A stretch of DNA of 64,000 nucleotides from a virus, in the IMG/VR virus record IMGVR_UViG_3300017971_000013, positions 39,596 through 103,595 of that record; one strand, 5' to 3'. The first letter of the stretch is position 1; each line of letters opens with the position of its first letter. Below are positions 2,728 through 35,086 of the stretch, one piece after another. The notes beneath the pieces were generated by a model, which was not told the origin of the DNA, did not search any database, and saw nothing but the letters and a program-made list of their open reading frames with translations. A program made the translations under genes and the position numbers.

Positions 2728-4830
2728 ATGACTAGGTACTTTTTTGCAGGAGGGGACTCTAAGCCCGCAATTAAGTGTATGCTCGCATGTGACGTCAAAA
2801 ATATTCTGTTTAGCTTCTTCTATATACAGAAAAAGCGGCAGAAGAATTTTGATGCCCTTGTAAGTCAGCTGACAGAACTCAAGGAAAAAGGTGGTTATAC
2901 TTTTATCTTAGATTCTGGTGGCTTTACTTATAAAGATGTAGCGGGCCGAGGGTTTCAAACTGTTAGAAGTGAAGCAGGCGCTGTACGGACAAAGAAGCTA
3001 GATCCATATGCGTATTTAGAGGAATACACCAAATTTCTTATACAATATGGACACTTGTTTGATGTCTGTGCAGAGTTTGAACCGGACGAAGTGTTCGGCG
3101 GCGTAGATATTGTAGATGAGAACAGAGAGAAGATGCTAGCCACCTTCGAGAAGCACGGTGTAGAGGTTAACCTCATGCCTGTGTTTGATTCTTTCATAAG
3201 GGATCTAGATACGTGGGAAGAGTGGTGTGAAGATTCTAGATACAAGCATCTTGGTTTTGTGGGAAATGATATACGTCTTGCTTCTCGTCTTGTAAATAAG
3301 GCGCATAGACACGGCAAAAAAGTACATGGTTTCGCGCAGACTAAGATTGAGGATCTTCAAAGAGCTAAGTTTGATACTGTGGATTCTACAGGATGGATTT
3401 CTGGGCAGAAATATGGAGAGGTGTTCATATTTCAACGTGGTAAATGGACCAGACTAAACGCTACCCAAAAGAATAAGCGCAAGCTTTATAAGAACTATTT
3501 CAAGGCAATTGGGATAGATTGGGACCTCATCAATAGAGATGATCCCAATGAGTTACTTAAAGCCTCATGTTTGTCCTGGAAGCGTTTGTTTGATCACTTT
3601 GAGGCTAGGTCTATATTAGAGACAGCCAGTACCACCTCCTTAAAGAGAGCAGCACCAACAAAGCCTGTTCGTGGGGTGTTGATGCAGTTAGCTGAGCTTG
3701 GTGTAGACAAAAAACCACGGGAGCGTAATGTCCCAAAGAAGACAATCAAAGTGGGGGGTAAGATACGGCTTATGTCGACGAAAGCGACAGCGTTCGACGC
3801 ACAGAAGATCATTGCACGGGCGTTGGAGTTGTCGGAACTCCCTGTCGAGGAAGCCTGGGAAAAAGCCTTTGGGCGAGATGAGCAAGAAATAACTGTTGAT
3901 GAGCAAGAGATGAACGCGTTGTTTAAGCCTAAAAGAGCCAGAGGGTTTAGCCCAGAATGGTATGCGTTGCTAGACCAACAACGTCAGGTAGAAGAGGCAT
4001 TAGAAAAAGTCTCGGCAGACAATGAAAAAAGAAATAATAACTGGGACAAGTTCCTGGTGACTGAGCCTCTTATGTCCGAAAACGAGGTAATTTCGCAGGG
4101 TTCCATTTTAGGTGACACTACAGACTACACAAATATTAAACAAATTCAGGGAAATACCGCAGAAATGGCGGATGGATCGCACGTTGCTAAAGACAACGTT
4201 GTTAATAGCAACAGAGAAACTTTAGACAGTCAAAACGACCCTACAAAGCTCACATCATCGACGATTCGTAAAAAATTGTCCGTCCATGCGTGTCATACGT
4301 GCGCAGTTTCTACCGATTGCTCTTATTATCAACCTGGCTACTTGTGTTATTACAAACCAGCATTTCAAACGTTGCAAAGTCGCAATGTTAAAGATGTGAT
4401 GCAGGCGTTAGAGTATATAACGGACAAGAACCTAGAGAGAACGATGCGCGCGTTTTTGATGGAAGAGATACAGATGGGGGGTCAAGTAGACCCTCAAGCA
4501 TCAAATGTGTCTCAGTTAGCTTTCGGGCAGTTAGAGAAGCTAGCTTCACTGAAACATGCAACCAGACCCGAATCTTTCAAGGTAACACTCGAAGGACAAG
4601 GTGAGTCAGCGTCTATCTTGACCCAACTTTTATCGGGCGCAAAACAGCCCGAAGAGCCAAAACAGTTAGAAGCGCAAGAGACTAATATGATAGATGTGAC
4701 ACCTAAGAAGAAAGAGAGAATAGAAGAACGCGCGATAAGAGAGTCAAAACAGCAAGGTAACAGACAAGATGAATATGACATTACTGAATTAGCTACGATA
4801 CAGAAAATGTTTGTTCCTGATCAACAGTAG
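2728..4830 (+). CDS. TGT/DpdA-like transglycosylase (7-deazaguanine insertion) fused to a long C-terminal region with a Cys4 cluster
   Basis: N-terminal ~290 aa has ILDSGGFT, MPVF, KVHGF and FDTVDSTGW motifs typical of phage TGT-superfamily TIM barrels; queC and queD lie in the same window; C-terminus has CxxC-x4-C-x8-C. Confidence 0.65.
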   Translation: MTRYFFAGGDSKPAIKCMLACDVKNILFSFFYIQKKRQKNFDALVSQLTELKEKGGYTFILDSGGFTYKDVAGRGFQTVRSEAGAVRTKKLDPYAYLEEYTKFLIQYGHLFDVCAEFEPDEVFGGVDIVDENREKMLATFEKHGVEVNLMPVFDSFIRDLDTWEEWCEDSRYKHLGFVGNDIRLASRLVNKAHRHGKKVHGFAQTKIEDLQRAKFDTVDSTGWISGQKYGEVFIFQRGKWTRLNATQKNKRKLYKNYFKAIGIDWDLINRDDPNELLKASCLSWKRLFDHFEARSILETASTTSLKRAAPTKPVRGVLMQLAELGVDKKPRERNVPKKTIKVGGKIRLMSTKATAFDAQKIIARALELSELPVEEAWEKAFGRDEQEITVDEQEMNALFKPKRARGFSPEWYALLDQQRQVEEALEKVSADNEKRNNNWDKFLVTEPLMSENEVISQGSILGDTTDYTNIKQIQGNTAEMADGSHVAKDNVVNSNRETLDSQNDPTKLTSSTIRKKLSVHACHTCAVSTDCSYYQPGYLCYYKPAFQTLQSRNVKDVMQALEYITDKNLERTMRAFLMEEIQMGGQVDPQASNVSQLAFGQLEKLASLKHATRPESFKVTLEGQGESASILTQLLSGAKQPEEPKQLEAQETNMIDVTPKKKERIEERAIRESKQQGNRQDEYDITELATIQKMFVPDQQ

Positions 4831-5064: not shown

Positions 5065-5286
5065 ATGAACGTCACACTATACGTAACAGAAGAGACAAAG
5101 AAAGACATGGAGTATCTTAAGAAGTATCACAACTTCAAACCAAGTAAACTACTACAGGAGGTAACAACGCTCATCATGGAGAAAACTGAGATCTGTGCTG
5201 GTTGTCCAGCTCGAGCCGATGAAACGTGCGCGGTGTGTAAGTATAACTCTGTGACTATTATAGTAGAGAAACACTTAAAGAGATGA
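5065..5286 (+). CDS. Small DNA-binding protein, ribbon-helix-helix-like N-terminus plus Cys4 C-terminus (putative)
   Basis: AGGAGGAG RBS; MNVTLYVTEETKKDMEYLK...SKLLQE pattern; CAGC...CAVC. Confidence 0.55.
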   Translation: MNVTLYVTEETKKDMEYLKKYHNFKPSKLLQEVTTLIMEKTEICAGCPARADETCAVCKYNSVTIIVEKHLKR

Positions 5287-5719: not shown

Positions 5720-6362
5720 TAAAGTGGAGTACCTAGGGGCCAGGTGGGGACTATACGTTATGAGCATATGCCCATAACCTAGTGTCTGCCATTCCACTTT
5801 TGTTCATCTACAACGTGTAAATGGCACCTAGGTGTACCCTAGACCCCCCCTGAGACCAACCTCAGTCCCCCTCACGCCCAGTAAAGTGATCAGTCAGTGA
5901 AAAGGGTCAGTCTTTGGGGGAGTGTATGGGGAGTTCAGTGTCGGGGCAGTGAGTTGGGAGTGAGTATTAAGTGAGTTCTTAACGAGAGTGAGTAGCCGAG
6001 AGCCCTCCTGCAGTGAGTGAGTCAGTGAGTTTCTTCTGTGCGATAAAGTGACACTCCACCAACCACCTCTTATCTCCAAACATTGCCACTTGGCAACCTC
6101 AAAAAGTCCACGTTCATACATTATAAAGTGATATCTTCAGACATCCTCTGTCAGGCAGCGACCATTTCCTACCTTAGCTGTCATTTTCCACTCAAAAAGT
6201 CTCGGCGTGAACGTTATAAAGTGCATGTGTACCTACTATAAAGTGTATACAGAGCACCAATAAAGTGATGTCTCGCAGCAGTTGGTAGTACAGAGCTATG
6301 CGAAATAAAGTGTTGCGGCGAAAGAGATAAAGTGTGGGCCAAAGTCTCATAGGAAATAAGTG
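5720..6362 (+). repeat. Cluster of TAAAGTG boxes (iteron-like), partly phased at 22 bp
   Basis: TAAAGTG at 5720, 5882, 6044, 6124, 6217, 6239, 6261, 6306 and 6328; 33-nt imperfect direct repeat at 6098-6130 and 6191-6223. Confidence 0.75.
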
Positions 6363-6400
6363 ACGCAGCTGCCGGAGCGGACGGACGAGGTCAGTGGTGT

Positions 6401-6523
6401 CCATATTCGGCCATTGACCACATATGGCGATTGAGGTGTCCATATATGGTGATCACCGCATATGGTGAATCCGACCCTTCTATCCATATATGGCGATTCA
6501 CCCCAAAATTCGACCATATCTGG
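6401..6523. repeat. Cluster of CCATATATGG-type palindromes
   Basis: Copies or variants at 6401, 6418, 6440, 6456, 6484 and 6514. Confidence 0.8.
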
Positions 6524-6998
6524 CGAATATCCTTTTAAACCCTTGAAACCATGGGTGAAATTCGATCCATCTCTGAAACCCCTCATTTCGGGACACGAAA
6601 GCTCTATATAATGATAAGGGCGACTGTGGCAAAATGTATACACTGTATATTCAGAGCAACACTTGGTTTGAGCGAGCAACCATGCGGACATGAGCAAATA
6701 CGTCCTATACCTACATGTCATACTGTATACATTTTGCTACAGGGTGTTGTGTTGACACCTTGCCATTTGGCAACGTCTGTTCTGTACAGGTTGTACTTTT
6801 TTCAACCTTTTTACACTCTGTAACATATTGTAATTATGTACAAAACAGCCACAGGCCGAAATTCGACCCAAAAAAACGACACAAAAAAGCGATGGTTGGT
6901 ATCGAACCTGCAATTTAACCTTTGTGTTCGCGGGGGCGAACAAGGGAAGCAAGCCCTACTTGCTAAGGTCCCTTAGGGGACCAAACAGCGGAGCTATC

Positions 6999-7235
6999 AT
7001 GGAATTGCTAGCTATCATCATGTTTTCGTTCCTTGGTCTGTTCGTTTCTTCTGTTGTAATTCAGAGCAACCTTGCCGTTGTCGTCGCGGCGACTAATCGT
7101 AAGAACTATCTCGATTTCTGCGAGAATGTAGATAGCGAGCTGAAAGCTATTCATAGACAAATGTACGTAGACGAGATTGTCGCTGAAAGCGACATTTACG
7201 CGGCTGTTGATTGTTTGGGTCTGAGACTACGCTAA
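6999..7235 (+). CDS. Small membrane protein (early-type cassette)
   Basis: GGAG RBS before ATG 6999; N-terminal hydrophobic helix. Confidence 0.65.
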   Translation: MELLAIIMFSFLGLFVSSVVIQSNLAVVVAATNRKNYLDFCENVDSELKAIHRQMYVDEIVAESDIYAAVDCLGLRLR

Positions 7236-7272
7236 AACGGTTTTAGGGCGGTTCGATTCCGCCCTTAGCGTA
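7228..7272 (+). ncRNA. tRNA-like minihelix (acceptor-like stem + T-arm, no anticodon arm)
   Basis: TACGCTAA/TTAGCGTA stem enclosing GGGCGG-TTCGATT-CCGCCC. Confidence 0.5.
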
Positions 7273-23646: not shown

Positions 23647-25505
23647 TGCCTTTCTCTGACGAGGAAATTCGCGTAAAATCTGATAAACTTTCTTTGCAGA
23701 TTTCAGGAGGCGCGGATCAGGCTCCAGGAAAAAAGTTCTGGTATAATGAGGAGCATCCTTGGTCTCCTATTGTTGTACCTGATAACATTTGGTCTGATTT
23801 TGCTACAATACCTCCAGCTACAACGCCAGCTCAGGCAGATGCAAATGCTATAGCTAATCCCACTATTATTGAAAGGTTGGAAACCAGGTTAACTAACAAT
23901 CCAACTAGCAATAATAGGCAATATGAAGCTAGACAAACTTATGGTGATCGGACCAGTGATATTTATGTCAACTGGATCCAGCCTGCTCTCGTTAGAGATA
24001 GCGGTGCGCCCTCAAACGGATACATCATCCGACTGTATAATGGTGATCCCTCTGGAGGCGGTGTAGAGTTACCAACTACTTGGAATGGTGGTCCAGATGG
24101 TGCCCCCTCTTGGGAATGGAATTACTCTACTGGTGTTTTAAAGGTTTCTACTGATCAATCTGCAAACTATGGTGCTATAGATGCTGGCGCCGGTTTATGG
24201 GTTCAGGGTTTCAGATATATCGGGCCTACAGGAGGAGGTGCTTCCACTGTTGCAAGCACACCTAAAAGACTTGGCGCAATTGATATAGATGGCGCAGTTA
24301 ACCTAGTAAATACAGATTATGTTTTGTACACTGTTCCAGCAGGGTCTTATGCATTATCTGCCTTTGTTGTTGTGTGTAACAGAAACGCGGCGTTGGCAAC
24401 AACTGTAAGAATTGCACATTCTGTGGCTGGGCCACTAAACAATGAAGATTACATATTTTATGATGTAGATGTGCTAGCTTACGAATCTAAATTCATTTCT
24501 ATACCAGGCATGTCTGCTGGTGATTATATTACAGTAAGAGCAGATACTTCTGATACGGATTTTATGATTCGTGGTTTTGAAGATGTTGGAACTGCGCCTG
24601 TTCAACGCATAGCAGCGCTTGCCACAGATATAGGAACCAGAAATACAGATCTCCAAGCCTACTTAAGTACACAGGATTCTAGTGATGTTAAATACTACAT
24701 TTGTAATCATAATGGTGCTTTAGCTACGCGCGTGCGCGTGGCGCATATAGATGATGTTGTTGTTGGTAGTTTACTACCAGAGGACTACGAACTATATGAG
24801 GAAGAATTAGTAGCCACTGAATCTAGAGGATATTGTACTGGTCTTCAAATGTCTGCTAATCAGACTTTGATGTTTCGCGCAGATGAAGCAGATGTGAACA
24901 TTGTTGTTTATTGTTCATTTGGAGGAACGGGTGGAGGCGGTGGAGGAGGTGTTTCTTTATGGCAAGAAATAGGTACCGACTTAAGTCCTCTAACTCCAGG
25001 TAACAATGTGACTGTTCCTGGCGCAAGGCTGACTCTAGGTGATGATGTAGATCCTCAATTCTTTGAATCCATCACACAAGCTTCAGGCCAAGCTACCCAG
25101 GTTGGTGACAGCCAATATGAACGTGTTGTCTGTTATGGTGAGACTTTTGATGCGGCCTGGACAGTTCTCTATCCAGGCGGCAATGCCGCTAACAATTTGA
25201 CTTTAGTTGCAGGTTCATCTTATACTTGCAGGGTTCTTGTAACTGGAGTTCAGTACGGCGGCATTTTAGGGTCTCAGTATGATACTTGGGCATATGAATT
25301 GATAGGAAACATTGTGCTGGCCGGAGGTGTCACTACAATGCATTCTTATATCTCAAATACAATATTTGAAGCAGATAATACCTTTGATGTGCAATTAGTT
25401 GCAGATGACATCAATGATGCAATTCAGGTCCAGGTTAGAGGCGGTGTTAGTAAGTCCGTGCGATGGACCGCCGTTGTTGAACTTATAAATAGTTATGGTG
25501 GCTAG
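23646..25505 (+). CDS. Multi-domain tail-fibre/adhesin-like protein
   Basis: Gly-rich linkers; two tandem beta-sandwich repeats (VCNRNAALATTVRIAH / ICNHNGALATRVRVAH); C-terminal VRWTAVVE domain. Confidence 0.7.
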   Translation: MPFSDEEIRVKSDKLSLQISGGADQAPGKKFWYNEEHPWSPIVVPDNIWSDFATIPPATTPAQADANAIANPTIIERLETRLTNNPTSNNRQYEARQTYGDRTSDIYVNWIQPALVRDSGAPSNGYIIRLYNGDPSGGGVELPTTWNGGPDGAPSWEWNYSTGVLKVSTDQSANYGAIDAGAGLWVQGFRYIGPTGGGASTVASTPKRLGAIDIDGAVNLVNTDYVLYTVPAGSYALSAFVVVCNRNAALATTVRIAHSVAGPLNNEDYIFYDVDVLAYESKFISIPGMSAGDYITVRADTSDTDFMIRGFEDVGTAPVQRIAALATDIGTRNTDLQAYLSTQDSSDVKYYICNHNGALATRVRVAHIDDVVVGSLLPEDYELYEEELVATESRGYCTGLQMSANQTLMFRADEADVNIVVYCSFGGTGGGGGGGVSLWQEIGTDLSPLTPGNNVTVPGARLTLGDDVDPQFFESITQASGQATQVGDSQYERVVCYGETFDAAWTVLYPGGNAANNLTLVAGSSYTCRVLVTGVQYGGILGSQYDTWAYELIGNIVLAGGVTTMHSYISNTIFEADNTFDVQLVADDINDAIQVQVRGGVSKSVRWTAVVELINSYGG

Positions 25506-26745
25506 TATGCAAAACAATGTCCAAGGAAAGGTCGTTGGCTTGGGCGGTAATTTGCCGAGCCACGTAAGACTGGAACCTTCTTTTCATGATCATTGTAACT
25601 GCAGGGGTTGGACTCCTGCAGCCCTTGGGTCTGGAAATAGTTTCCTTAATAGGTTTTGGAATAGGGCAAACACTGATTGGAACAATCATTGGAAATATAA
25701 ATGGTGGGAATTCTTTCCTCAAGGAGGTACTGTAGATCCATTTGGTCCAAGAAGGTTTGATACCACTGTTGAACTTGCTAATTACCTAGCTGATAACCTA
25801 CCGATGCTTGCTGGCAATTATGATGATGGTGTGAATGTGCGGTGTTATGATGCCGTAGATTATGCTGATTCATTTCCGCGCATAAGAATTGTTCGCAATT
25901 CTATTATAGGCTCGGTTAGAGGCAGGCGTAGATGGTTAGTAGGCTTTAGCTCCGAAACTTGTGGTATTTCTTCGGGCTTTAATGCCCCTAACTATTATGC
26001 AGGTGGCTTTCCTGGTAACACGGGTCGTTTGTTTGTTCAGAAATATACAGGCTTTTTACCAGGGACAAATAACGATGACGTTGTGTGGGCTACGAGGAAG
26101 AAACGCACTATGTGGTCGTTCCCTAAGGTAGGTAATCTGATTCAAGACTTACCCCCTGGAGCAAGAAGGGCTGCGTGGAATACAAACACTTTAAATTGGG
26201 TGACTCCAGCTCCTCAGCTTAGTTACGCATTTCAAAATCCTTTTCTGTGGTATGAAAACTACTGGGGCGGGGTTTTGGCTGTTGGTTATCCTAGTGACTT
26301 AGGTCAATCTTACAGAGAGGCTGTTCTTAATGGACCAGCAGCACTTGTGTTTCCTGTAGTCTCTGGGGATCATGTCGCTTTTGCTGTTTATCCAATGGGT
26401 TTTGATACTTTTTACACGGATAGACTAGGTACAGACGAAGAGCTTATCACAAAAGCAACCTTTAAAAGACAATCAACTCCAAGATACAAAGTTCTAACAT
26501 CTTCAAGCGTCGATCGTGATGTTGAAATGTTCCACACCGGAGACGGTGGAGGAAATCATTTTATGCAGTCAACGGATTGGCCAAACTCAAGCAATGATGG
26601 TATACGTGTACCTCATAAGGTGTATGTAGCTAAACGTAACACTGTGACAGGTGTGCGTTCAAAATGGGTTAAATTAGGAATCTTTCATCATCGTGTTCCT
26701 CATTCATCCCATAGGTTTGATCCAGCCTATAAATGGACAGGATAA
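25495..26745 (+). CDS. Unknown protein, paralogue A (followed by 3x30-nt hairpin array A)
   Basis: 416-aa W/R-rich ORF; aligns by eye with the C-terminal ~400 aa of 27275-28987; alternative start 25507. Confidence 0.8.
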   Translation: MVASMQNNVQGKVVGLGGNLPSHVRLEPSFHDHCNCRGWTPAALGSGNSFLNRFWNRANTDWNNHWKYKWWEFFPQGGTVDPFGPRRFDTTVELANYLADNLPMLAGNYDDGVNVRCYDAVDYADSFPRIRIVRNSIIGSVRGRRRWLVGFSSETCGISSGFNAPNYYAGGFPGNTGRLFVQKYTGFLPGTNNDDVVWATRKKRTMWSFPKVGNLIQDLPPGARRAAWNTNTLNWVTPAPQLSYAFQNPFLWYENYWGGVLAVGYPSDLGQSYREAVLNGPAALVFPVVSGDHVAFAVYPMGFDTFYTDRLGTDEELITKATFKRQSTPRYKVLTSSSVDRDVEMFHTGDGGGNHFMQSTDWPNSSNDGIRVPHKVYVAKRNTVTGVRSKWVKLGIFHHRVPHSSHRFDPAYKWTG

Positions 26746-26788
26746 GATTCAGATGTTGCCAACTGGCAATGTTTGATTCCCCGTGAGA

Positions 26789-26878
26789 GGGGCTGCTATG
26801 TAGTAATGCAGCCCCAACGGGGTCACTTTGTAGTAATGTGGCCCCAAAGGGGCTGCCTTGTAGTAGTGCAGCCCCAAT
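26789..26878 (+). repeat. Array A: three tandem 30-nt hairpin repeats (candidate structured RNA)
   Basis: GGGGCTGC-TATGTAGTAAT-GCAGCCCC-AAC / GGGGTCAC-TTTGTAGTAAT-GTGGCCCC-AAA / GGGGCTGC-CTTGTAGTAGT-GCAGCCCC-AAT; compensatory stem changes. Confidence 0.9.
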
Positions 26879-26927
26879 GAGATGCCTCTAAAGGAGAGCC
26901 AGCCAGGTTCGATTCCTGGGCATCTCA
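26879..26927 (+). ncRNA. Anticodon-less tRNA-like element
   Basis: 7-bp acceptor stem GAGATGC/GCATCTC + A; D-like arm CTCT-AAAGG-AGAG; T-arm CCAGG-TTCGATT-CCTGG; only CCAG where the anticodon arm would be. Confidence 0.7.
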
Positions 26928-26954
26928 CTTTTGTGTTTCACTAAGAGGAATGTA

Positions 26955-27278
26955 ATGAAAGAATTACAGGTTAGAGGCACTACTGGTCAAAGACACTCTG
27001 GTGGGCAGCAAAACACTACGTCTGTATCCACCTTGACTGTGGCAGATTATGATTTAACTGATATGCGTTACGGGGGAGAATTCCTCCTTACGCCAGACGG
27101 TTCTTCTACTTTGTTAGAGTTGCTTCAGGCCGAAGCTCCTTGGGATTTGATGGAGACTTATACACTGGAGGAGCCTCCAGAAGATAATCAGTTAAGTTTA
27201 GCTGTGGTACCTTCGGCCGGTGCCACTGTTCGTGTTTTGTTGACTGCACGAATTGATTGTCAGGATCCTGTAACATGA
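26955..27278 (+). CDS. Small protein, paralogue of 37992-38348 (fibre-associated/chaperone candidate)
   Basis: GAGGA RBS; GGEFLLTPDGSSTLLELLQ...VPSAGATVRV...DCQD vs GGDVVLDADGTKNILELIQ...VPVSGSKVVV...TCEE. Confidence 0.7.
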   Translation: MKELQVRGTTGQRHSGGQQNTTSVSTLTVADYDLTDMRYGGEFLLTPDGSSTLLELLQAEAPWDLMETYTLEEPPEDNQLSLAVVPSAGATVRVLLTARIDCQDPVT

Positions 27279-28987
27279 TTGAAAGCACAAAACCTAATAT
27301 AGATTTTGCGGCAAGAGACACAGCTTTTTTGACTATGTCAGCGCCGCAGAATGCTAATCTAGCTGTCGGAGATCATGTTGAATTTAACTTAGTTGAAGGA
27401 AACATCCCGTTATCTGTAGGAGCCGGACAGGCTAACGGTGTTTTGACTTTAACTAACAGCAAAAAATATAAACTAGAGGCCAATGTCTCTTGTGCGTTCG
27501 GCGCAACAAATGATTCGTGCTCATTTGTCTGGTATGACACAACAAACAACACTGAGATAGGGAAAAGGTCTGATTGTTTCTCTGTTTCTGGTTCAGCTAC
27601 AGAGAGTTCTGTCAGCACCGTGCGCGCGGTGGTAACGCCAGGGGCAGACATAAACGTAGAGCTTAGAATTATCGCTGTCAGCGGTACTGTTACACTCATT
27701 TCTAACTCCTTTGCAAATGGGTGGGTAGAGAGCTTAGAGGCGTATATAAATGTAGTGCCAACTTTTGATGTTCATGTTCCCACTATAGAATATGACACGT
27801 TCACTGTTGGCATACACGACTCTACAAACTGGTCTGGTTCTGCTTTTGATTCTTTGGCGGATCGTCAAGCGGCAGATATAAACAGAAATTTCTCTAACTA
27901 CACACAATGTTTTTGGCGCTTGTATGAAAGAGAGGTAGGCACTAACCTTTTGGTTAATTACTGGGAAGGTTTGCAATTTGCCTCTATTGCCGCTCTTTAC
28001 ACCTTCATAAGAAATAACTGTGTAGAAAGTGGGACGGCTCCAGGGACACCAGCCAATGATATCATCGCTACTGCTTATGATATCATTGATGACACGGTAC
28101 AGCGCGTTAACCGTATTTATGGCCTGAATACTTTTCTTGCTATATTGAAAGGTCGGCGCAGGTATTTGTCATCCAACTTTGATGAATGTGTTTTAGACGA
28201 AAATCTGTGTTCGTGGGGACAGCTTGGTAACTGGATTGATGATCTGAATGCCAACGCGCCTGGGTGGCTTAATCCACTTTCGTCTTGGGCTCCAGGTTCT
28301 AATGAAGAGAATATTGTTTGGTTTTCAAGGAACATAAAGAAACTTTATGGGCTTCCAAACATCTCTACTGTGTTTATGAATCTGACTGCTCTAACAAATA
28401 GACGTGTTTGGGATTGGGGTGCGTCTGCTGTGGTCGCAGCCCCTCTTGGTGGTTATCAGGGCACAGGGCCGAGCGGAGAGCCTAAGATTTATTGTTCGTT
28501 GGATATGCCTACTCAAACGTGGACGTTTTTTGACACTACGTTGAGAGATCATTACGTACAGCAGTTTAACGGAGATAAATCTATTATAGTGCTTTATCAA
28601 CTGTCCAGTACTGCCGATCCGAACAAAAGAGCTGTCTTAGCAAAGCCTCTTGGTATAGATAGGGTTTCGATTCCTTGGTTTGATTCTTCTGTGTATGACT
28701 TATACGCTCTGTATAATCGTAAGAATCAGACACACAATATTCGCGGTCCTTTGACTAGTACCTTCGAAGATGTTATAGCTAATAAGAAGTGGGTGTTGAA
28801 AGATCAGTGGATGCATCCTTCTAAGTTCGATACTAAAGCTTCTGCAAGAATGGTTGGTACTCAAGAGTACACAACTAGATTCTTTTTGCGGCATAAATCT
28901 ACAGGGCGTATCTCAAAGCCTAGCAGCGCCAGAATAGTATGTGCCCAGAGGCACAGAGACGCTATGTTTAAATTTGAGGTACGTTAA
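27275..28987 (+). CDS. Unknown protein, paralogue B: N-terminal C1q/BclA-like beta domain + domain shared with 25495-26745
   Basis: ATGA-coupled start 27275; N-terminal VEFN..GNI...GVLTL...YKLEANVS jelly-roll pattern; followed by hairpin array B. Confidence 0.8.
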   Translation: MIESTKPNIDFAARDTAFLTMSAPQNANLAVGDHVEFNLVEGNIPLSVGAGQANGVLTLTNSKKYKLEANVSCAFGATNDSCSFVWYDTTNNTEIGKRSDCFSVSGSATESSVSTVRAVVTPGADINVELRIIAVSGTVTLISNSFANGWVESLEAYINVVPTFDVHVPTIEYDTFTVGIHDSTNWSGSAFDSLADRQAADINRNFSNYTQCFWRLYEREVGTNLLVNYWEGLQFASIAALYTFIRNNCVESGTAPGTPANDIIATAYDIIDDTVQRVNRIYGLNTFLAILKGRRRYLSSNFDECVLDENLCSWGQLGNWIDDLNANAPGWLNPLSSWAPGSNEENIVWFSRNIKKLYGLPNISTVFMNLTALTNRRVWDWGASAVVAAPLGGYQGTGPSGEPKIYCSLDMPTQTWTFFDTTLRDHYVQQFNGDKSIIVLYQLSSTADPNKRAVLAKPLGIDRVSIPWFDSSVYDLYALYNRKNQTHNIRGPLTSTFEDVIANKKWVLKDQWMHPSKFDTKASARMVGTQEYTTRFFLRHKSTGRISKPSSARIVCAQRHRDAMFKFEVR

Positions 28988-28999
28988 CAGTGTTTTGGC

Positions 29000-29089
29000 G
29001 GTTCGCTCGATTAAAGACGAACTGCGTTAGGTTCGCTCGATTAAAGACGAACCGTATTTGGCCCGCTCGATTAAAGACGGGCCACATAT
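29000..29089 (+). repeat. Array B: three tandem 30-nt hairpin repeats (candidate structured RNA)
   Basis: GGTTCG-CTCGATTAAAGA-CGAACT / GGTTCG-CTCGATTAAAGA-CGAACC / GGCCCG-CTCGATTAAAGA-CGGGCC; invariant 12-nt loop; double compensatory change TT/AA to CC/GG. Confidence 0.9.
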
Positions 29090-29092
29090 TCC

Positions 29093-29146
29093 AATAATTC
29101 CCCTCTTGTGTAACTTTCTCCTACATGAGAGGGGAATTATTATTTC
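29093..29146 (+). terminator. Long inverted repeat closing array B (terminator/processing hairpin)
   Basis: AATAATTCCCCTCT (29093-29106) / AGAGGGGAATTATT (29128-29141). Confidence 0.65.
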
Positions 29147-33265: not shown

Positions 33266-35086
33266 ATGGCACTTAGCTCTACTTACAAACAGCATAATTA
33301 CCTTGGTGAATATGCAAATGATGCCGCAGCTCTAACTTTTCTTCAGGCGTGTGAATGGGATACTAATTCAGACGGAACTGGTAACCCTAGAAACGGTATG
33401 TGGTACTATGATAGTACCAATAATAAATTTCGTGCCTATATAAATAGCGCTTGGGCCGATATGGATACGGGAGCGGCTATTGTAGATAGACAGGATGTCT
33501 ACGATCAAGACCCGGCGGTTCTAGTAACCGCAGCTGGTGGTGCGCACGGCGCAACACTGAACGACAATGGCGCGGAATTTGAAATTGGCTCTGGTGGCGC
33601 TGACCAGTTTAATCTGACACGCTCAGCGCTCGGTGAAATAACCGCTGATTGGGATCTAGAATCTATTGACGCGGATGTGGCCGGGGATGTCGCCATTACG
33701 TCTACAGGCGGCAATGCGACGTTTGAAGGTGACTCAGATGTCACTCTTCAATCTACCAGCGGCTCTGGCCGTGTGTTGATACAGGCTGGCGGTGGCGATA
33801 TTGACGTCGATGCCTCTCAGATCACCCTTGACGCGGGCTCGAATTTCAGCATTGACGCTACTGGTTCTGCGTCGAATGTCAGCTGTTCTGGTGGTGACCT
33901 GACTGTCTCTGCTACTGGTGCAGGTAATGACTTGTTGCTTTCGTCAGCTGCCGCAGAGGTGGATATCACTTCTGGTACGTTGATGGACATTAATGCTGGC
34001 GCTAATTTAGATATGGATGTCACAGGTACGTGTGATATCGATTCTACAGCTGCTATGACGTTGACGGCAGCAGGCGCGGCGCTTAACCTTGTTACTACAG
34101 GTTCTGGTGATGTTGTTCTGAACGCGGCTGATGATATCGATGCCAACAATAACATTATCAAAAACGTTGCTACGCCCACGGCCGGTTCTCATGCAGCTAA
34201 CAAGAGCTACGTGGATGCTGCTGTTAGTGGTTTGCAGTGGCTAGAACCAGCAGATGTAAAGGGCTATATTGGTTCTAGAACGATCGCAGAAATCAACGCT
34301 CTCACACCGAGCGCTGGTGATGCTGTTGTTGCAGCTTCTGCTGGTACACCTACTGCAGGTACTTCAGATGCTTTAGCCATTGGTGATATTGCAGAATATG
34401 ATGGCACTAGCTGGCTACAAATTGTAGCTAACTCTGGTGGTTTTCCTCCTGCAGACACTCGGGCGCTTGTTGCCGATGGTGCCGCTACTCTTTATGCTCC
34501 TCTTACTGATAATACGGACGAAGGTAAGGTTGCAGAGTGGGATGGCACCTCTTTAACGGCTACACTTGATACACCTGATGATGGTGATGCTATTTTGATT
34601 AACGGAGAAGGTTCTGTTAATGAGAATAAGCAATTTGTATTTGATGGTTCTGTGCCCACTGGAACGTGGGTGCAATTTGGTGGCACAGGCCTGGCACATA
34701 GTTCTTTATCGGGATTAACTGCTGGCGATGACCATACCCAGTATGCTCTGCTTGCTGGCCGTGCAGGCGGACAGACTCTTATTGGTGGTACTGCTGCCGG
34801 TAATGACCTGACTCTTACTGGTTCTTCTGGTGGTGGCGGTACTATCATTATGTCTGATGATGTAGACATGGGTGGTAGTCAGCAGATTACAAATTTGCAA
34901 GCGCCAGCAGCCAACGGAGAAGCCTTGCGTTATGAAGACTCGCCTATTGTGTCCACTAATGCTGGTCCCCCTGAAGGTTCTGTCACGGCCACTAAAAATG
35001 GCGATATTTGTGTAGATACTACAAATAGTCTTGCTTATATTAAGACTTCAGGTGGCGCTACTAACACAGGCTGGGCTGTGATGTAA
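33266..35086 (+). CDS. Tail-fibre-like protein
   Basis: N-terminus shared with 35166; HAANKSYVD and HSSLSGL..DDHTQY fibre motifs. Confidence 0.8.
   Translation: MALSSTYKQHNYLGEYANDAAALTFLQACEWDTNSDGTGNPRNGMWYYDSTNNKFRAYINSAWADMDTGAAIVDRQDVYDQDPAVLVTAAGGAHGATLNDNGAEFEIGSGGADQFNLTRSALGEITADWDLESIDADVAGDVAITSTGGNATFEGDSDVTLQSTSGSGRVLIQAGGGDIDVDASQITLDAGSNFSIDATGSASNVSCSGGDLTVSATGAGNDLLLSSAAAEVDITSGTLMDINAGANLDMDVTGTCDIDSTAAMTLTAAGAALNLVTTGSGDVVLNAADDIDANNNIIKNVATPTAGSHAANKSYVDAAVSGLQWLEPADVKGYIGSRTIAEINALTPSAGDAVVAASAGTPTAGTSDALAIGDIAEYDGTSWLQIVANSGGFPPADTRALVADGAATLYAPLTDNTDEGKVAEWDGTSLTATLDTPDDGDAILINGEGSVNENKQFVFDGSVPTGTWVQFGGTGLAHSSLSGLTAGDDHTQYALLAGRAGGQTLIGGTAAGNDLTLTGSSGGGGTIIMSDDVDMGGSQQITNLQAPAANGEALRYEDSPIVSTNAGPPEGSVTATKNGDICVDTTNSLAYIKTSGGATNTGWAVM

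What the first reader, a model, noticed from the sequence alone, without database searches (positions are those of the whole stretch)
26879..26927. Anticodon-less mini-tRNA fused directly to the 3' end of array A
This 49-nt element has a 7-bp acceptor stem and discriminator A, a D-like arm with GG in its loop, and a canonical T-arm (CCAGG-TTCGATT-CCTGG). Only CCAG sits where the anticodon arm should be, and no CCA is encoded. It starts immediately after repeat 3. Established: RNase P and RNase Z recognise the acceptor/T-arm elbow, as in MALAT1/mascRNA processing. Inference: it is a processing tag that cuts the triple-hairpin RNA away from the downstream fibre mRNA, the role a terminator-like hairpin would play for array B. 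It could also be a tRNA decoy.
Basis: partly seen in the sequence, partly recalled or inferred. Interest (0 to 1): 0.8.

Follow-up and report, generated by a model that had tools for sequence, protein, structure and literature searches.

The report
Anticodon-less tRNA mimic in a phage
The 49-base stretch really is shaped like a tRNA that has lost its anticodon arm. It is one of five such elements on the coding strand of an uncultured 104-kb phage and most likely marks where host tRNA-trimming enzymes cut the phage RNA, although no RNA data could be obtained to show this.

Summary
Window 26879-26927 has a perfect 7-bp acceptor stem, a 4-bp hairpin with loop AAAGG, a 4-nt linker, a T arm containing GGTTCGATTCC, discriminator A and no encoded CCA. 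ARAGORN and Rfam call nothing.

It is not a chance hairpin. A pairing descriptor finds five such elements in the 103.6-kb genome, all on the coding strand, against 0.25 hits per shuffled genome. It finds none beyond chance in 866 kb of unrelated viral contigs. Four elements share one architecture: 65 of 65 paired cells are standard pairs, and 15 of 18 pairs show two or more pair types.

The attP reading is very unlikely. The genome has no integrase, no host tRNA matches, and both acceptor strands are present.

The best reading is a tRNA-like signal for RNase P and RNase Z that bounds the triple-hairpin RNA and the downstream mRNA, like plant mitochondrial t-elements or mascRNA. Three points weaken it:
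- No RNA data or related phages could be obtained.
- E5 alone has a rod-like fold 5 kcal/mol better than the tRNA-like fold, followed by a U-rich tract, so it also looks like a terminator.
- Two sister elements overlap upstream stop codons.

This scan has noted similar mini-tRNAs in at least 15 other phage genomes. I found no paper describing them.

The parts
26879..26885 (+). E5 acceptor stem, 5' strand (GAGATGC)
   Evidence: Pairs perfectly with 26920-26926. Found by the descriptor.
26886..26898 (+). E5 D-like mini arm: 4-bp stem CTCT/AGAG with loop AAAGG
   Evidence: The same position in E2 and E3 holds GGCTG-AAAG-CAGC(C/T).
26899..26902 (+). 4-nt linker CCAG where the anticodon arm and variable loop would be
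   Evidence: E2 and E3 have 4-nt linkers GTTA and GTCA.
26903..26919 (+). E5 T arm: CCAGG-TTCGATT-CCTGG
   Evidence: GGTTCGATTCC at 26906-26916. Fits GGTTCRANYCC (PMC1920247).
26920..26927 (+). E5 acceptor stem, 3' strand (GCATCTC), plus discriminator A26927. No CCA is encoded.
26928..26938 (+). U-rich trailer CTTTTGTGTTT. It resembles the trailer of the phage's only true tRNA (CTTCTGAG after discriminator A). It could be a 3'-processing context or a terminator U tract.
   Evidence: Interpretation is inferred.
26788..26877 (+). Array A: three 30-nt hairpin repeats ending one base before E5
   Evidence: The 215-nt region folds with z = -7.7.
26756..26769 (+). Copy of the genome-wide palindrome TTGCCA-N2-4-TGGCAA, 19 nt before array A
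   Evidence: Function unknown.
25495..26745 (+). Upstream ORF of 416 aa with no known family. Its mRNA would end at array A and E5.
26955..27278 (+). Downstream ORF of 107 aa counted from ATG 26955. GAGGA lies at 26945-26949, 18 nt after E5.
7229..7272 (+). E4, a sister element: ACGCTAA / 10-nt linker / GGGCGG-TTCGATT-CCGCCC / TTAGCGT / A. Its 5' strand overlaps the stop codon TAA at 7233-7235 of ORF 6924-7235.
   Evidence: (E = 6.7e-5 to the model built from E2 and E3).

Best explanation
E5 is a transcribed, anticodon-less tRNA mimic: acceptor stem, mini D arm and T arm. It is one of five such elements on the coding strand of this phage. It most likely acts in cis as a recognition signal for the host's tRNA end-processing enzymes. 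RNase P would cut between U26878 and G26879. That would leave the upstream RNA (the mRNA of ORF 25495-26745 and/or a separate triple-hairpin RNA) ending in three GC-rich hairpins. RNase Z, or whichever pathway matures the phage's CCA-less tRNA-Leu, would cut after A26927. That would free a 49-nt mini-tRNA and give the downstream mRNA a 27-nt leader carrying its ribosome-binding site. Shown: the anatomy, the family, the strand bias, the enrichment over chance and the intergenic placement. Inferred: transcription through the element, both cleavages, and any effect on RNA stability or translation.
For: (1) The anatomy matches the minimal RNase P/RNase Z substrate, namely a 7+5 bp acceptor/T stack with a canonical T loop and a GG-bearing mini D loop. 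It also matches the t-element search motif GGTTCRANYCC.
(2) Five elements occur, all on the + strand, against 0.25 hits per shuffled genome. None beyond chance occurs in 866 kb of other viral contigs.
(3) E2, E3, E4 and E5 share one architecture although their stem sequences differ completely. All 65 cells are paired, 15 of 18 pairs have two or more pair types, and the RNAalifold consensus equals the tRNA-like fold. The three G-U pairs in E2 would be A-C mismatches on the other strand, so the + strand is the folded strand.
(4) For E2, E3 and E4 the tRNA-like fold is the MFE or within 0.7 kcal/mol of it.
(5) A model built from E2 and E3 alone finds E4 at E = 6.7e-5.
(6) Every element lies between genes, 27-70 nt before the next start codon.
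(7) The phage's one true tRNA also lacks an encoded CCA and has a similar trailer (A|CUUCUGAG against A|CUUUUGUG). The host must therefore have a CCA-independent 3' maturation pathway that E5 could use.
(8) The phage has no integrase, reverse transcriptase or CCA-adding enzyme, so host enzymes would have to act.
Against: - No RNA data exist.
- No related phage carries a homologous element or array, so there is no cross-genome covariation.
- For E5 itself the thermodynamic model prefers a rod-like hairpin by 5 kcal/mol, with P(tRNA-like pairs) about 2e-4. This model ignores T-loop tertiary contacts.
- A U-rich tract follows E5, as it would after a terminator.
- E3 and E4 overlap the stop codons of their upstream ORFs. 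RNase P cleavage there would produce non-stop mRNAs, which is awkward for a simple punctuation model.
- E2 and E3 differ by 7 transitions that all keep pairing, but this is only weakly significant (p about 0.05-0.12).
- U8 and N9 are missing and the D loop has only 5 nt, so elbow formation is unproven.
Confidence: 0.45

Rival explanations
1. E5 is mainly an intrinsic terminator, or a 3'-protective hairpin, that ends the array A RNA or the upstream mRNA. This matches the terminator-like hairpin after array B. The tRNA likeness would be secondary or inherited.
For: The MFE of E5 is a long imperfect hairpin at -24.7 kcal/mol, z = -4.1. It is followed after 1-2 nt by CUUUUGUGUUU. Array B is followed by a 14-bp inverted repeat with a U-rich tail that the terminator scan flags at 29114-29136.
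Against: The terminator scan does not call E5. The four sister elements have no U tract. An exact GGTTCGATTCC with a perfect 7-bp stem set directly against the T stem is not needed for termination and is very unlikely by chance.
Confidence: 0.2
2. The released mini-tRNA acts in trans as a decoy or sponge for a protein that reads the acceptor/T-arm half of tRNA. One example is SmpB, as proposed for the 'TLD-only' tmRNA of mycobacteriophage DS6A. Another is a host defence enzyme that attacks the tRNA 3' end.
For: The element keeps exactly the half of tRNA that tmRNA's tRNA-like domain keeps. A TLD-only molecule is recorded in a phage and is reported to inhibit tmRNA (PMC4131195). Five copies per genome would raise dosage. 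If sister elements create non-stop mRNAs, blocking trans-translation would benefit the phage; this last step is inference.
Against: E5 has no G3-U70 alanine identity pair (it has G3-C70) and no encoded CCA. ARAGORN finds no tmRNA. The known anti-phage tRNA nucleases that I recall target the anticodon loop, which is absent here. The acceptor stems of the five copies differ, which fits a structural signal better than a specific mimic.
Confidence: 0.15
3. The elements are decaying relics of phage tRNA genes that lost their anticodon arms and now have no function.
For: E1, E2 and E3 lie within 2 kb of the only true tRNA, in a tRNA-region-like stretch of small ORFs. Distant relatives such as Streptomyces phage BRock carry large tRNA clusters. 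The statistical support from E2 against E3 is weak.
Against: Every stem in four elements is perfectly paired, 65 of 65 cells. Allowing one mismatch turns up no further degraded copy. E2, E3 and E5 share the same unusual design: a hairpin with an AAAG(G) loop directly after the acceptor stem, then a 4-nt linker. E4 and E5 lie far from the tRNA region. All five are on the transcribed strand.
Confidence: 0.12
4. E5 is an attP core, a fragment of a host tRNA gene used for integration.
For: tRNA-like attP sites exist in viruses, for example halovirus HF2 (PMC8707807).
Against: The genome has no tyrosine integrase. It has direct terminal repeats. No genome among 185,579 species holds the 23-nt T-arm-plus-acceptor string. 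There are five different copies. The 5' acceptor strand is present while the anticodon arm is precisely missing.
Confidence: 0.02

Closest known systems
t-elements of plant mitochondria (Hanic-Joyce 1990; Forner et al. 2007, PMC1920247)
   Same: Non-decoding tRNA-like folds with a conserved GGTTCRANYCC T arm and an acceptor-like stem. They are embedded in long transcripts at mRNA 5' or 3' boundaries. Some lie inside the reading frame, so that the mRNA loses its stop codon, as E3 and E4 would cause here. They are cleaved by RNase P and RNase Z and sometimes gain C or A residues from the CCA-adding enzyme.
   Different: They occur in an organelle, not a phage, and are about 70-75 nt long with degenerate cloverleaves rather than a clean deletion of the anticodon arm. 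Their cleavage is shown experimentally, whereas none is shown here.
mascRNA / MALAT1 and MEN-beta tRNA-like 3' modules (Rfam RF01684; Wilusz et al. 2008, from my own knowledge)
   Same: A tRNA-like fold fused directly to the 3' end of a non-coding RNA. RNase P makes the mature 3' end of the upstream RNA, and RNase Z plus CCA addition release a small tRNA-like RNA.
   Different: These are eukaryotic nuclear RNAs, and mascRNA keeps a short anticodon-like stem. No Rfam match was found here. Whether array A is a separate ncRNA is unknown.
tRNA-like domain of tmRNA, and the 'TLD-only' tmRNA of mycobacteriophage DS6A (PMC4131195)
   Same: Acceptor stem plus T arm plus a reduced D region, with no anticodon arm. 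One phage-encoded example is known.
   Different: E5 has no G3-U70 pair, no encoded CCA and no mRNA-like domain. ARAGORN makes no tmRNA call.
RNase P-processed phage small RNAs (P1/P7 C4 antisense RNA, P4 CI RNA, phi80 M3 RNA) and T4 stable RNAs C and D
   Same: Phage RNAs whose ends are made by host RNase P acting on tRNA-like acceptor/T-type helices.
   Different: Those are single regulatory or stable RNAs, not a dispersed family of 44-52-nt top-half mimics placed between genes.
Canonical tRNA (Rfam RF00005)
   Same: A 7-bp acceptor stem, a discriminator base, and a 5-bp T stem with loop TTCGATT.
   Different: E5 has no anticodon arm, no U8/N9 and a 5-nt D loop. It falls below every detection threshold.

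Membership tests
Canonical tRNA (RF00005 / ARAGORN) | Anticodon arm: 5-bp stem with a 7-nt loop carrying an anticodon | tested here: not met
   Only CCAG lies between the D-like hairpin and the T stem. ARAGORN makes no call. Rfam is below gathering score.
Canonical tRNA (RF00005 / ARAGORN) | 7-bp acceptor stem lying directly against a 5-bp T stem with a T-loop consensus | tested here: met
Canonical tRNA (RF00005 / ARAGORN) | U8/N9 connector and a 7-11-nt D loop with G18 G19 | tested here: not met
   There is no connector. The D-like loop is AAAGG, 5 nt, with GG present.
tRNA-like processing signals (t-elements, mascRNA class) | T-arm motif GGTTCRANYCC with an adjoining acceptor-like stem, in a non-decoding fold | tested here: met
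tRNA-like processing signals (t-elements, mascRNA class) | Located on the transcribed strand at a boundary between RNAs or genes | tested here: met
   All five elements are on the + strand, intergenic or at ORF ends. Transcription itself is inferred from gene orientation.
tRNA-like processing signals (t-elements, mascRNA class) | RNA 5' and 3' ends coincide with the element's ends; cleavage by RNase P and RNase Z; non-templated C/A addition | not testable with these tools
mascRNA-menRNA (Rfam RF01684) | Match to the family covariance model | tested here: not met
   No match up to E = 10 in 26600-27100.
tmRNA tRNA-like domain | G3-U70 alanine identity pair and a 3' CCA | tested here: not met
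   Position 3 pairs as G-C and no CCA is encoded. ARAGORN makes no tmRNA call.
Intrinsic (rho-independent) terminator | Stable GC-rich hairpin immediately followed by a U tract | tested here: inconclusive
   A rod-like MFE hairpin of -24.7 kcal/mol is followed 1-2 nt later by CUUUUGUGUUU. The consensus scan does not call it.
attP / tRNA-gene fragment | Identity to the 3' part of a host tRNA gene, with a cognate integrase nearby | tested here: not met
   No exact match in 185,579 species genomes. No PF00589 integrase in the genome.

The most novel reading that the evidence does not exclude
This phage uses a dispersed set of anticodon-less tRNA mimics as a bacterial-virus version of tRNA punctuation. 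Host RNase P and RNase Z would cut long phage transcripts at these tags. [quoted passage not shown] At E3 and E4, it would remove the upstream stop codon. The released mini-tRNAs might in addition titrate a tRNA-binding host factor such as SmpB. I found no paper that describes such a system in phages.
Probability: 0.35. Interest if true: 0.75.

Novelty: new variant of a known kind. Interest (0 to 1): 0.6.

Why it matters
If host tRNA-processing enzymes do cut here, phages would share with mitochondria and with MALAT1-type RNAs the use of a tRNA-shaped tag to define RNA ends. RNase P and RNase Z would then be host factors for phage gene expression. It would also explain structured intergenic elements that tRNA finders and Rfam miss. 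The elements are short and portable, so they could be tested directly and reused as RNA-processing tags in bacteria. The overlap of two sister elements with stop codons raises a testable link to trans-translation.

Tried and rejected
- **Relatives by flanking proteins.** The 416-aa upstream protein has no homologue in IMG/VR or among 5.8 billion proteins, where it matches only itself. The 576-aa downstream protein has none in IMG/VR.
- **Relatives by capsid protein.** The nearest relative, at 66% identity, is a 79-kb contig of 63% GC. It has no T-arm motif, no homologue of the neighbouring gene and no elements.
- **Cultured relatives.** BCD7, BRock, Bacteroides phage BS162P1 and MT835482 share 38-47% capsid identity. 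BCD7 and BS162P1 have no T-arm motif at all. BRock's 31 motifs are 29 tRNAs plus five 66-86-nt atypical tRNA-like genes, with no mini elements.
- **Exact-pattern scans.** The E5 core gave no hit in IMG/VR. The E2/E3 core gave none in IMG/VR. The E5 T arm plus acceptor strand gave none in 185,579 genomes.
- **Array-loop pattern in IMG/VR.** It gave 83 hits, all low-complexity coding repeats and none a hairpin array.
- **Array loops plus T arm in JGI metagenomes.** No hit.
- **E2/E3 T-arm pattern in metagenomes.** It gave 13 hits, none with an adjoining acceptor stem. Some look like other structured RNAs.
- **MAFFT structural alignment.** MAFFT could not align the elements by structure. I therefore counted pairs on a hand alignment in a script, which is fitted to the structure. 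Model R1, built from E2 and E3, finds E5 only at E = 0.5 and in a shifted register.
- **Minus-strand ORF 26749-26928 (59 aa).** Rejected as a gene. It has no ribosome-binding site, it would be the only minus-strand gene in the area, and it is a by-product of the repeats.
- **Reverse-transcriptase primer idea.** Rejected, because the genome has no RT.

Full report
**Context.** The window is bases 39596-103595 of a 103,595-bp IMG/VR virus record with direct terminal repeats and 42.7% GC. PHROG matches to terminase, portal, major head protein, tail sheath and endolysin mark it as a tailed myovirus. Almost all ORFs lie on the + strand. The nearest cultured capsid relative is Bacillus phage BCD7 at 47% identity. 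The whole genome holds a single bona fide tRNA, Leu-UAA at genome 36017-36100, outside the window. Its CCA is not encoded.

**Observation.**
- Acceptor stem: GAGATGC (26879-26885) pairs with GCATCTC (26920-26926).
- Hairpin directly after the acceptor strand: CTCT-AAAGG-AGAG.
- Linker: CCAG.
- T arm: CCAGG-TTCGATT-CCTGG.
- Discriminator: A26927, followed by CTT rather than CCA.

Repeat 3 of the 3 x 30-nt hairpin array ends at 26877, one base before the element. ARAGORN finds nothing and Rfam has nothing at gathering score. The best permissive Rfam match is tRNA-Sec at 17.3 bits, E = 1, aligning only the acceptor and T arm.

**Is it chance?** I wrote a descriptor: a 7-bp acceptor stem lying directly against a 5-6-bp T stem with a tRNA-type T loop, total length 38-66 nt.
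- In its strict form it finds only tRNA-Leu plus three mini elements in the genome, against 0.12 hits per shuffled genome.
- With one mismatch allowed it finds exactly five places, all on the + strand and none on the - strand, against 0.25 per shuffle.
- Over 866 kb of unrelated viral contigs fetched for another purpose, it finds one AT-rich spurious locus, equal to the shuffled expectation.

So the element is real, and this phage is enriched for such elements.

**The family.** The five elements are:
- E1: genome 34082-34144, 63 nt. It has an anticodon-arm-like hairpin but no D arm and follows a roughly 460-nt non-coding stretch.
- E2: genome 34725-34776.
- E3: genome 35179-35230.
- E4: window 7229-7272.
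- E5: the finding.

The lead to E1-E4 came from an earlier first-stage note, and I verified each one in the sequence.

E2, E3 and E5 share an unusual design. The acceptor stem is followed at once by a 4-5-bp hairpin with loop AAAG(G), then a 4-nt linker, the T arm, the 3' acceptor strand and a discriminator. E4 lacks the small hairpin. On a hand-made structural alignment of E2-E5, all 65 paired cells are standard pairs. Fifteen of 18 pairs show two or more pair types, and RNAalifold returns exactly the tRNA-like fold. This alignment is fitted to the structure, and the four sequences may not all be homologous. A covariance model built from E2 and E3 alone finds E4 at E = 6.7e-5 but finds E5 only at E = 0.5.

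E2 and E3 differ by seven transitions. Five fall in stems and all keep pairing, including one A-U to G-C double change. A simulation puts this at only p of about 0.05-0.12. The three G-U pairs of E2 would be A-C mismatches on the other strand, which points to the + strand RNA as the folded molecule.

**Folding.** For E2, E3 and E4 the tRNA-like fold is the minimum-energy fold or within 0.7 kcal/mol of it. For E5 a rod-like hairpin is 5 kcal/mol better, because AGGAGAGCC can pair with GGUUCGAUUCCU. The energy model ignores T-loop tertiary contacts, so this is a caveat rather than a refutation. E5 is also followed by CUUUUGUGUUU, which keeps a terminator reading alive. The simple terminator scan does not call E5, but it does flag the hairpin that closes array B.

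**Placement.** Each element lies 27-70 nt before the next start codon. E5 ends 18 nt before the GAGGA of the ATG at 26955. E3 covers the last four codons and the stop of ORF genome 34814-35191, and E4 covers the stop codon of ORF 6924-7235. A cut at their 5' ends would therefore give non-stop mRNAs, as happens at the ccmC and nad6 t-elements of plant mitochondria. Only two 30-nt arrays exist in the genome, and array B has no tRNA-like element. The fusion of E5 to array A is therefore a single case, not a rule.

**Excluded readings.**
- attP: no tyrosine integrase, terminal repeats, five different copies, and no genome of 185,579 species with the E5 T arm plus acceptor strand.
- Reverse-transcriptase primer: no RT in the genome.
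- Phage-encoded CCA addition: no CCA-adding enzyme in the genome.
- Minus-strand ORF through the region: implausible.

**Relatives.** None could be found for the element, the array or the flanking genes in IMG/VR, JGI metagenomes, the 5.8-billion-protein set or cultured phages. Cross-genome covariation and RNA ends are therefore missing.

**Mechanism.** The best-supported reading (0.45) is a cis-acting tag for host tRNA end-processing. RNase P would cut at 26878/26879, and RNase Z or the pathway that matures the CCA-less tRNA-Leu would cut after A26927. The tRNA-Leu trailer, A|CUUCUGAG, resembles that of E5, A|CUUUUGUG. The upstream RNA would end in three GC-rich hairpins, and the downstream mRNA would start 27 nt before its ATG.

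The rivals are:
- terminator or 3'-protective hairpin (0.2);
- trans-acting decoy such as an SmpB sponge, like the TLD-only tmRNA of phage DS6A (0.15; PMC4131195);
- functionless tRNA relic (0.12);
- attP (0.02).

**Comparison and novelty.** The closest known systems are plant mitochondrial t-elements (PMC1920247) and mascRNA-type modules. Membership by sequence model fails for tRNA, mascRNA and tmRNA. The functional resemblance stands but is untested. Four full-text searches found no paper on anticodon-less tRNA mimics between phage genes. A large survey of viral structured RNAs mentions tRNA-like candidates only in general terms. This scan has noted similar elements in at least 15 other phage genomes. 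I did not test those notes. In my own sample of 866 kb of unrelated viral contigs they were absent, so they appear confined to particular lineages.

Noticed in passing
L007:4083-4145, 4726-4777, 5180-5231 (genome 34082-35230, before the window start): Three further tRNA-like mini elements (E1-E3) lie within 2 kb of the only true tRNA (Leu-UAA, L007:6018-6100). E2 and E3 are 87% identical 52-nt copies that bracket a single 125-aa ORF, and E3 overlaps that ORF's stop codon.
   Followed up: yes
L007:3640-4082 (genome ~33640-34081): A roughly 450-nt GC-richer stretch without a convincing ORF ends directly at the tRNA-like element E1. It has no Rfam match at E <= 1 and ARAGORN finds no tmRNA. It is a candidate large structured RNA with a tRNA-like 3' tag.
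   Followed up: partly
window 26788-26877 and 29000-29089: These are the only two 30-nt-period arrays in the genome, each with three hairpins that have constant loops (TGTAGTA(A/G)T and CTCGATTAAAGA) on covarying stems. The loops of array A contain UGU, the core recognition triplet of tRNA-guanine transglycosylase as I recall it, and the phage encodes a 700-aa TGT/DpdA-like protein (window 2728-4830, phrog_887). Any link is pure speculation.
   Followed up: partly
window 26756-26769 and about 30 other sites genome-wide (e.g. 17974, 23431, 33228, 51101, 57691): A palindrome TTGCCA-N2-4-TGGCAA with conserved flanks (AAC.TT...AACTTTAAA) recurs in intergenic gaps, often 5-25 nt before a ribosome-binding site, and also inside ORFs. 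It matches no sigma-70 promoter spacing. It may be a phage regulator or ParB-type site, or an RNA hairpin.
   Followed up: partly
window 5900-6900: A long non-coding region holds at least seven copies of ATAAAGTG-type iterons and repeats of CCATATATGGCGA. It is a candidate replication origin or regulatory region upstream of E4.
   Followed up: no
window 25495-26745 and 27257-28987: The two large ORFs that flank the finding look like divergent paralogues in their C-terminal parts by eye. Neither matches any Pfam family, and the first has no homologue outside this phage in 5.8 billion proteins.
   Followed up: partly
L131, L136, L138 (metagenome contigs fetched): Three unrelated metagenome contigs share a conserved motif, TCGGGGGTGCAATTCCCC(T/C)C.G.GGCTT, closed by a GAAAGC/GCTTTC-type stem. 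This may be a known or unknown structured RNA with a T-loop-like hairpin. It is not related to the finding.
   Followed up: no
L046 (Streptomyces phage BRock, record 96299-103847): Five T-arm motifs in BRock's tRNA cluster are not called by ARAGORN. They sit in 66-86-nt tRNA-like folds with perfect acceptor stems, so they are atypical or unannotated tRNA-like genes.
   Followed up: partly
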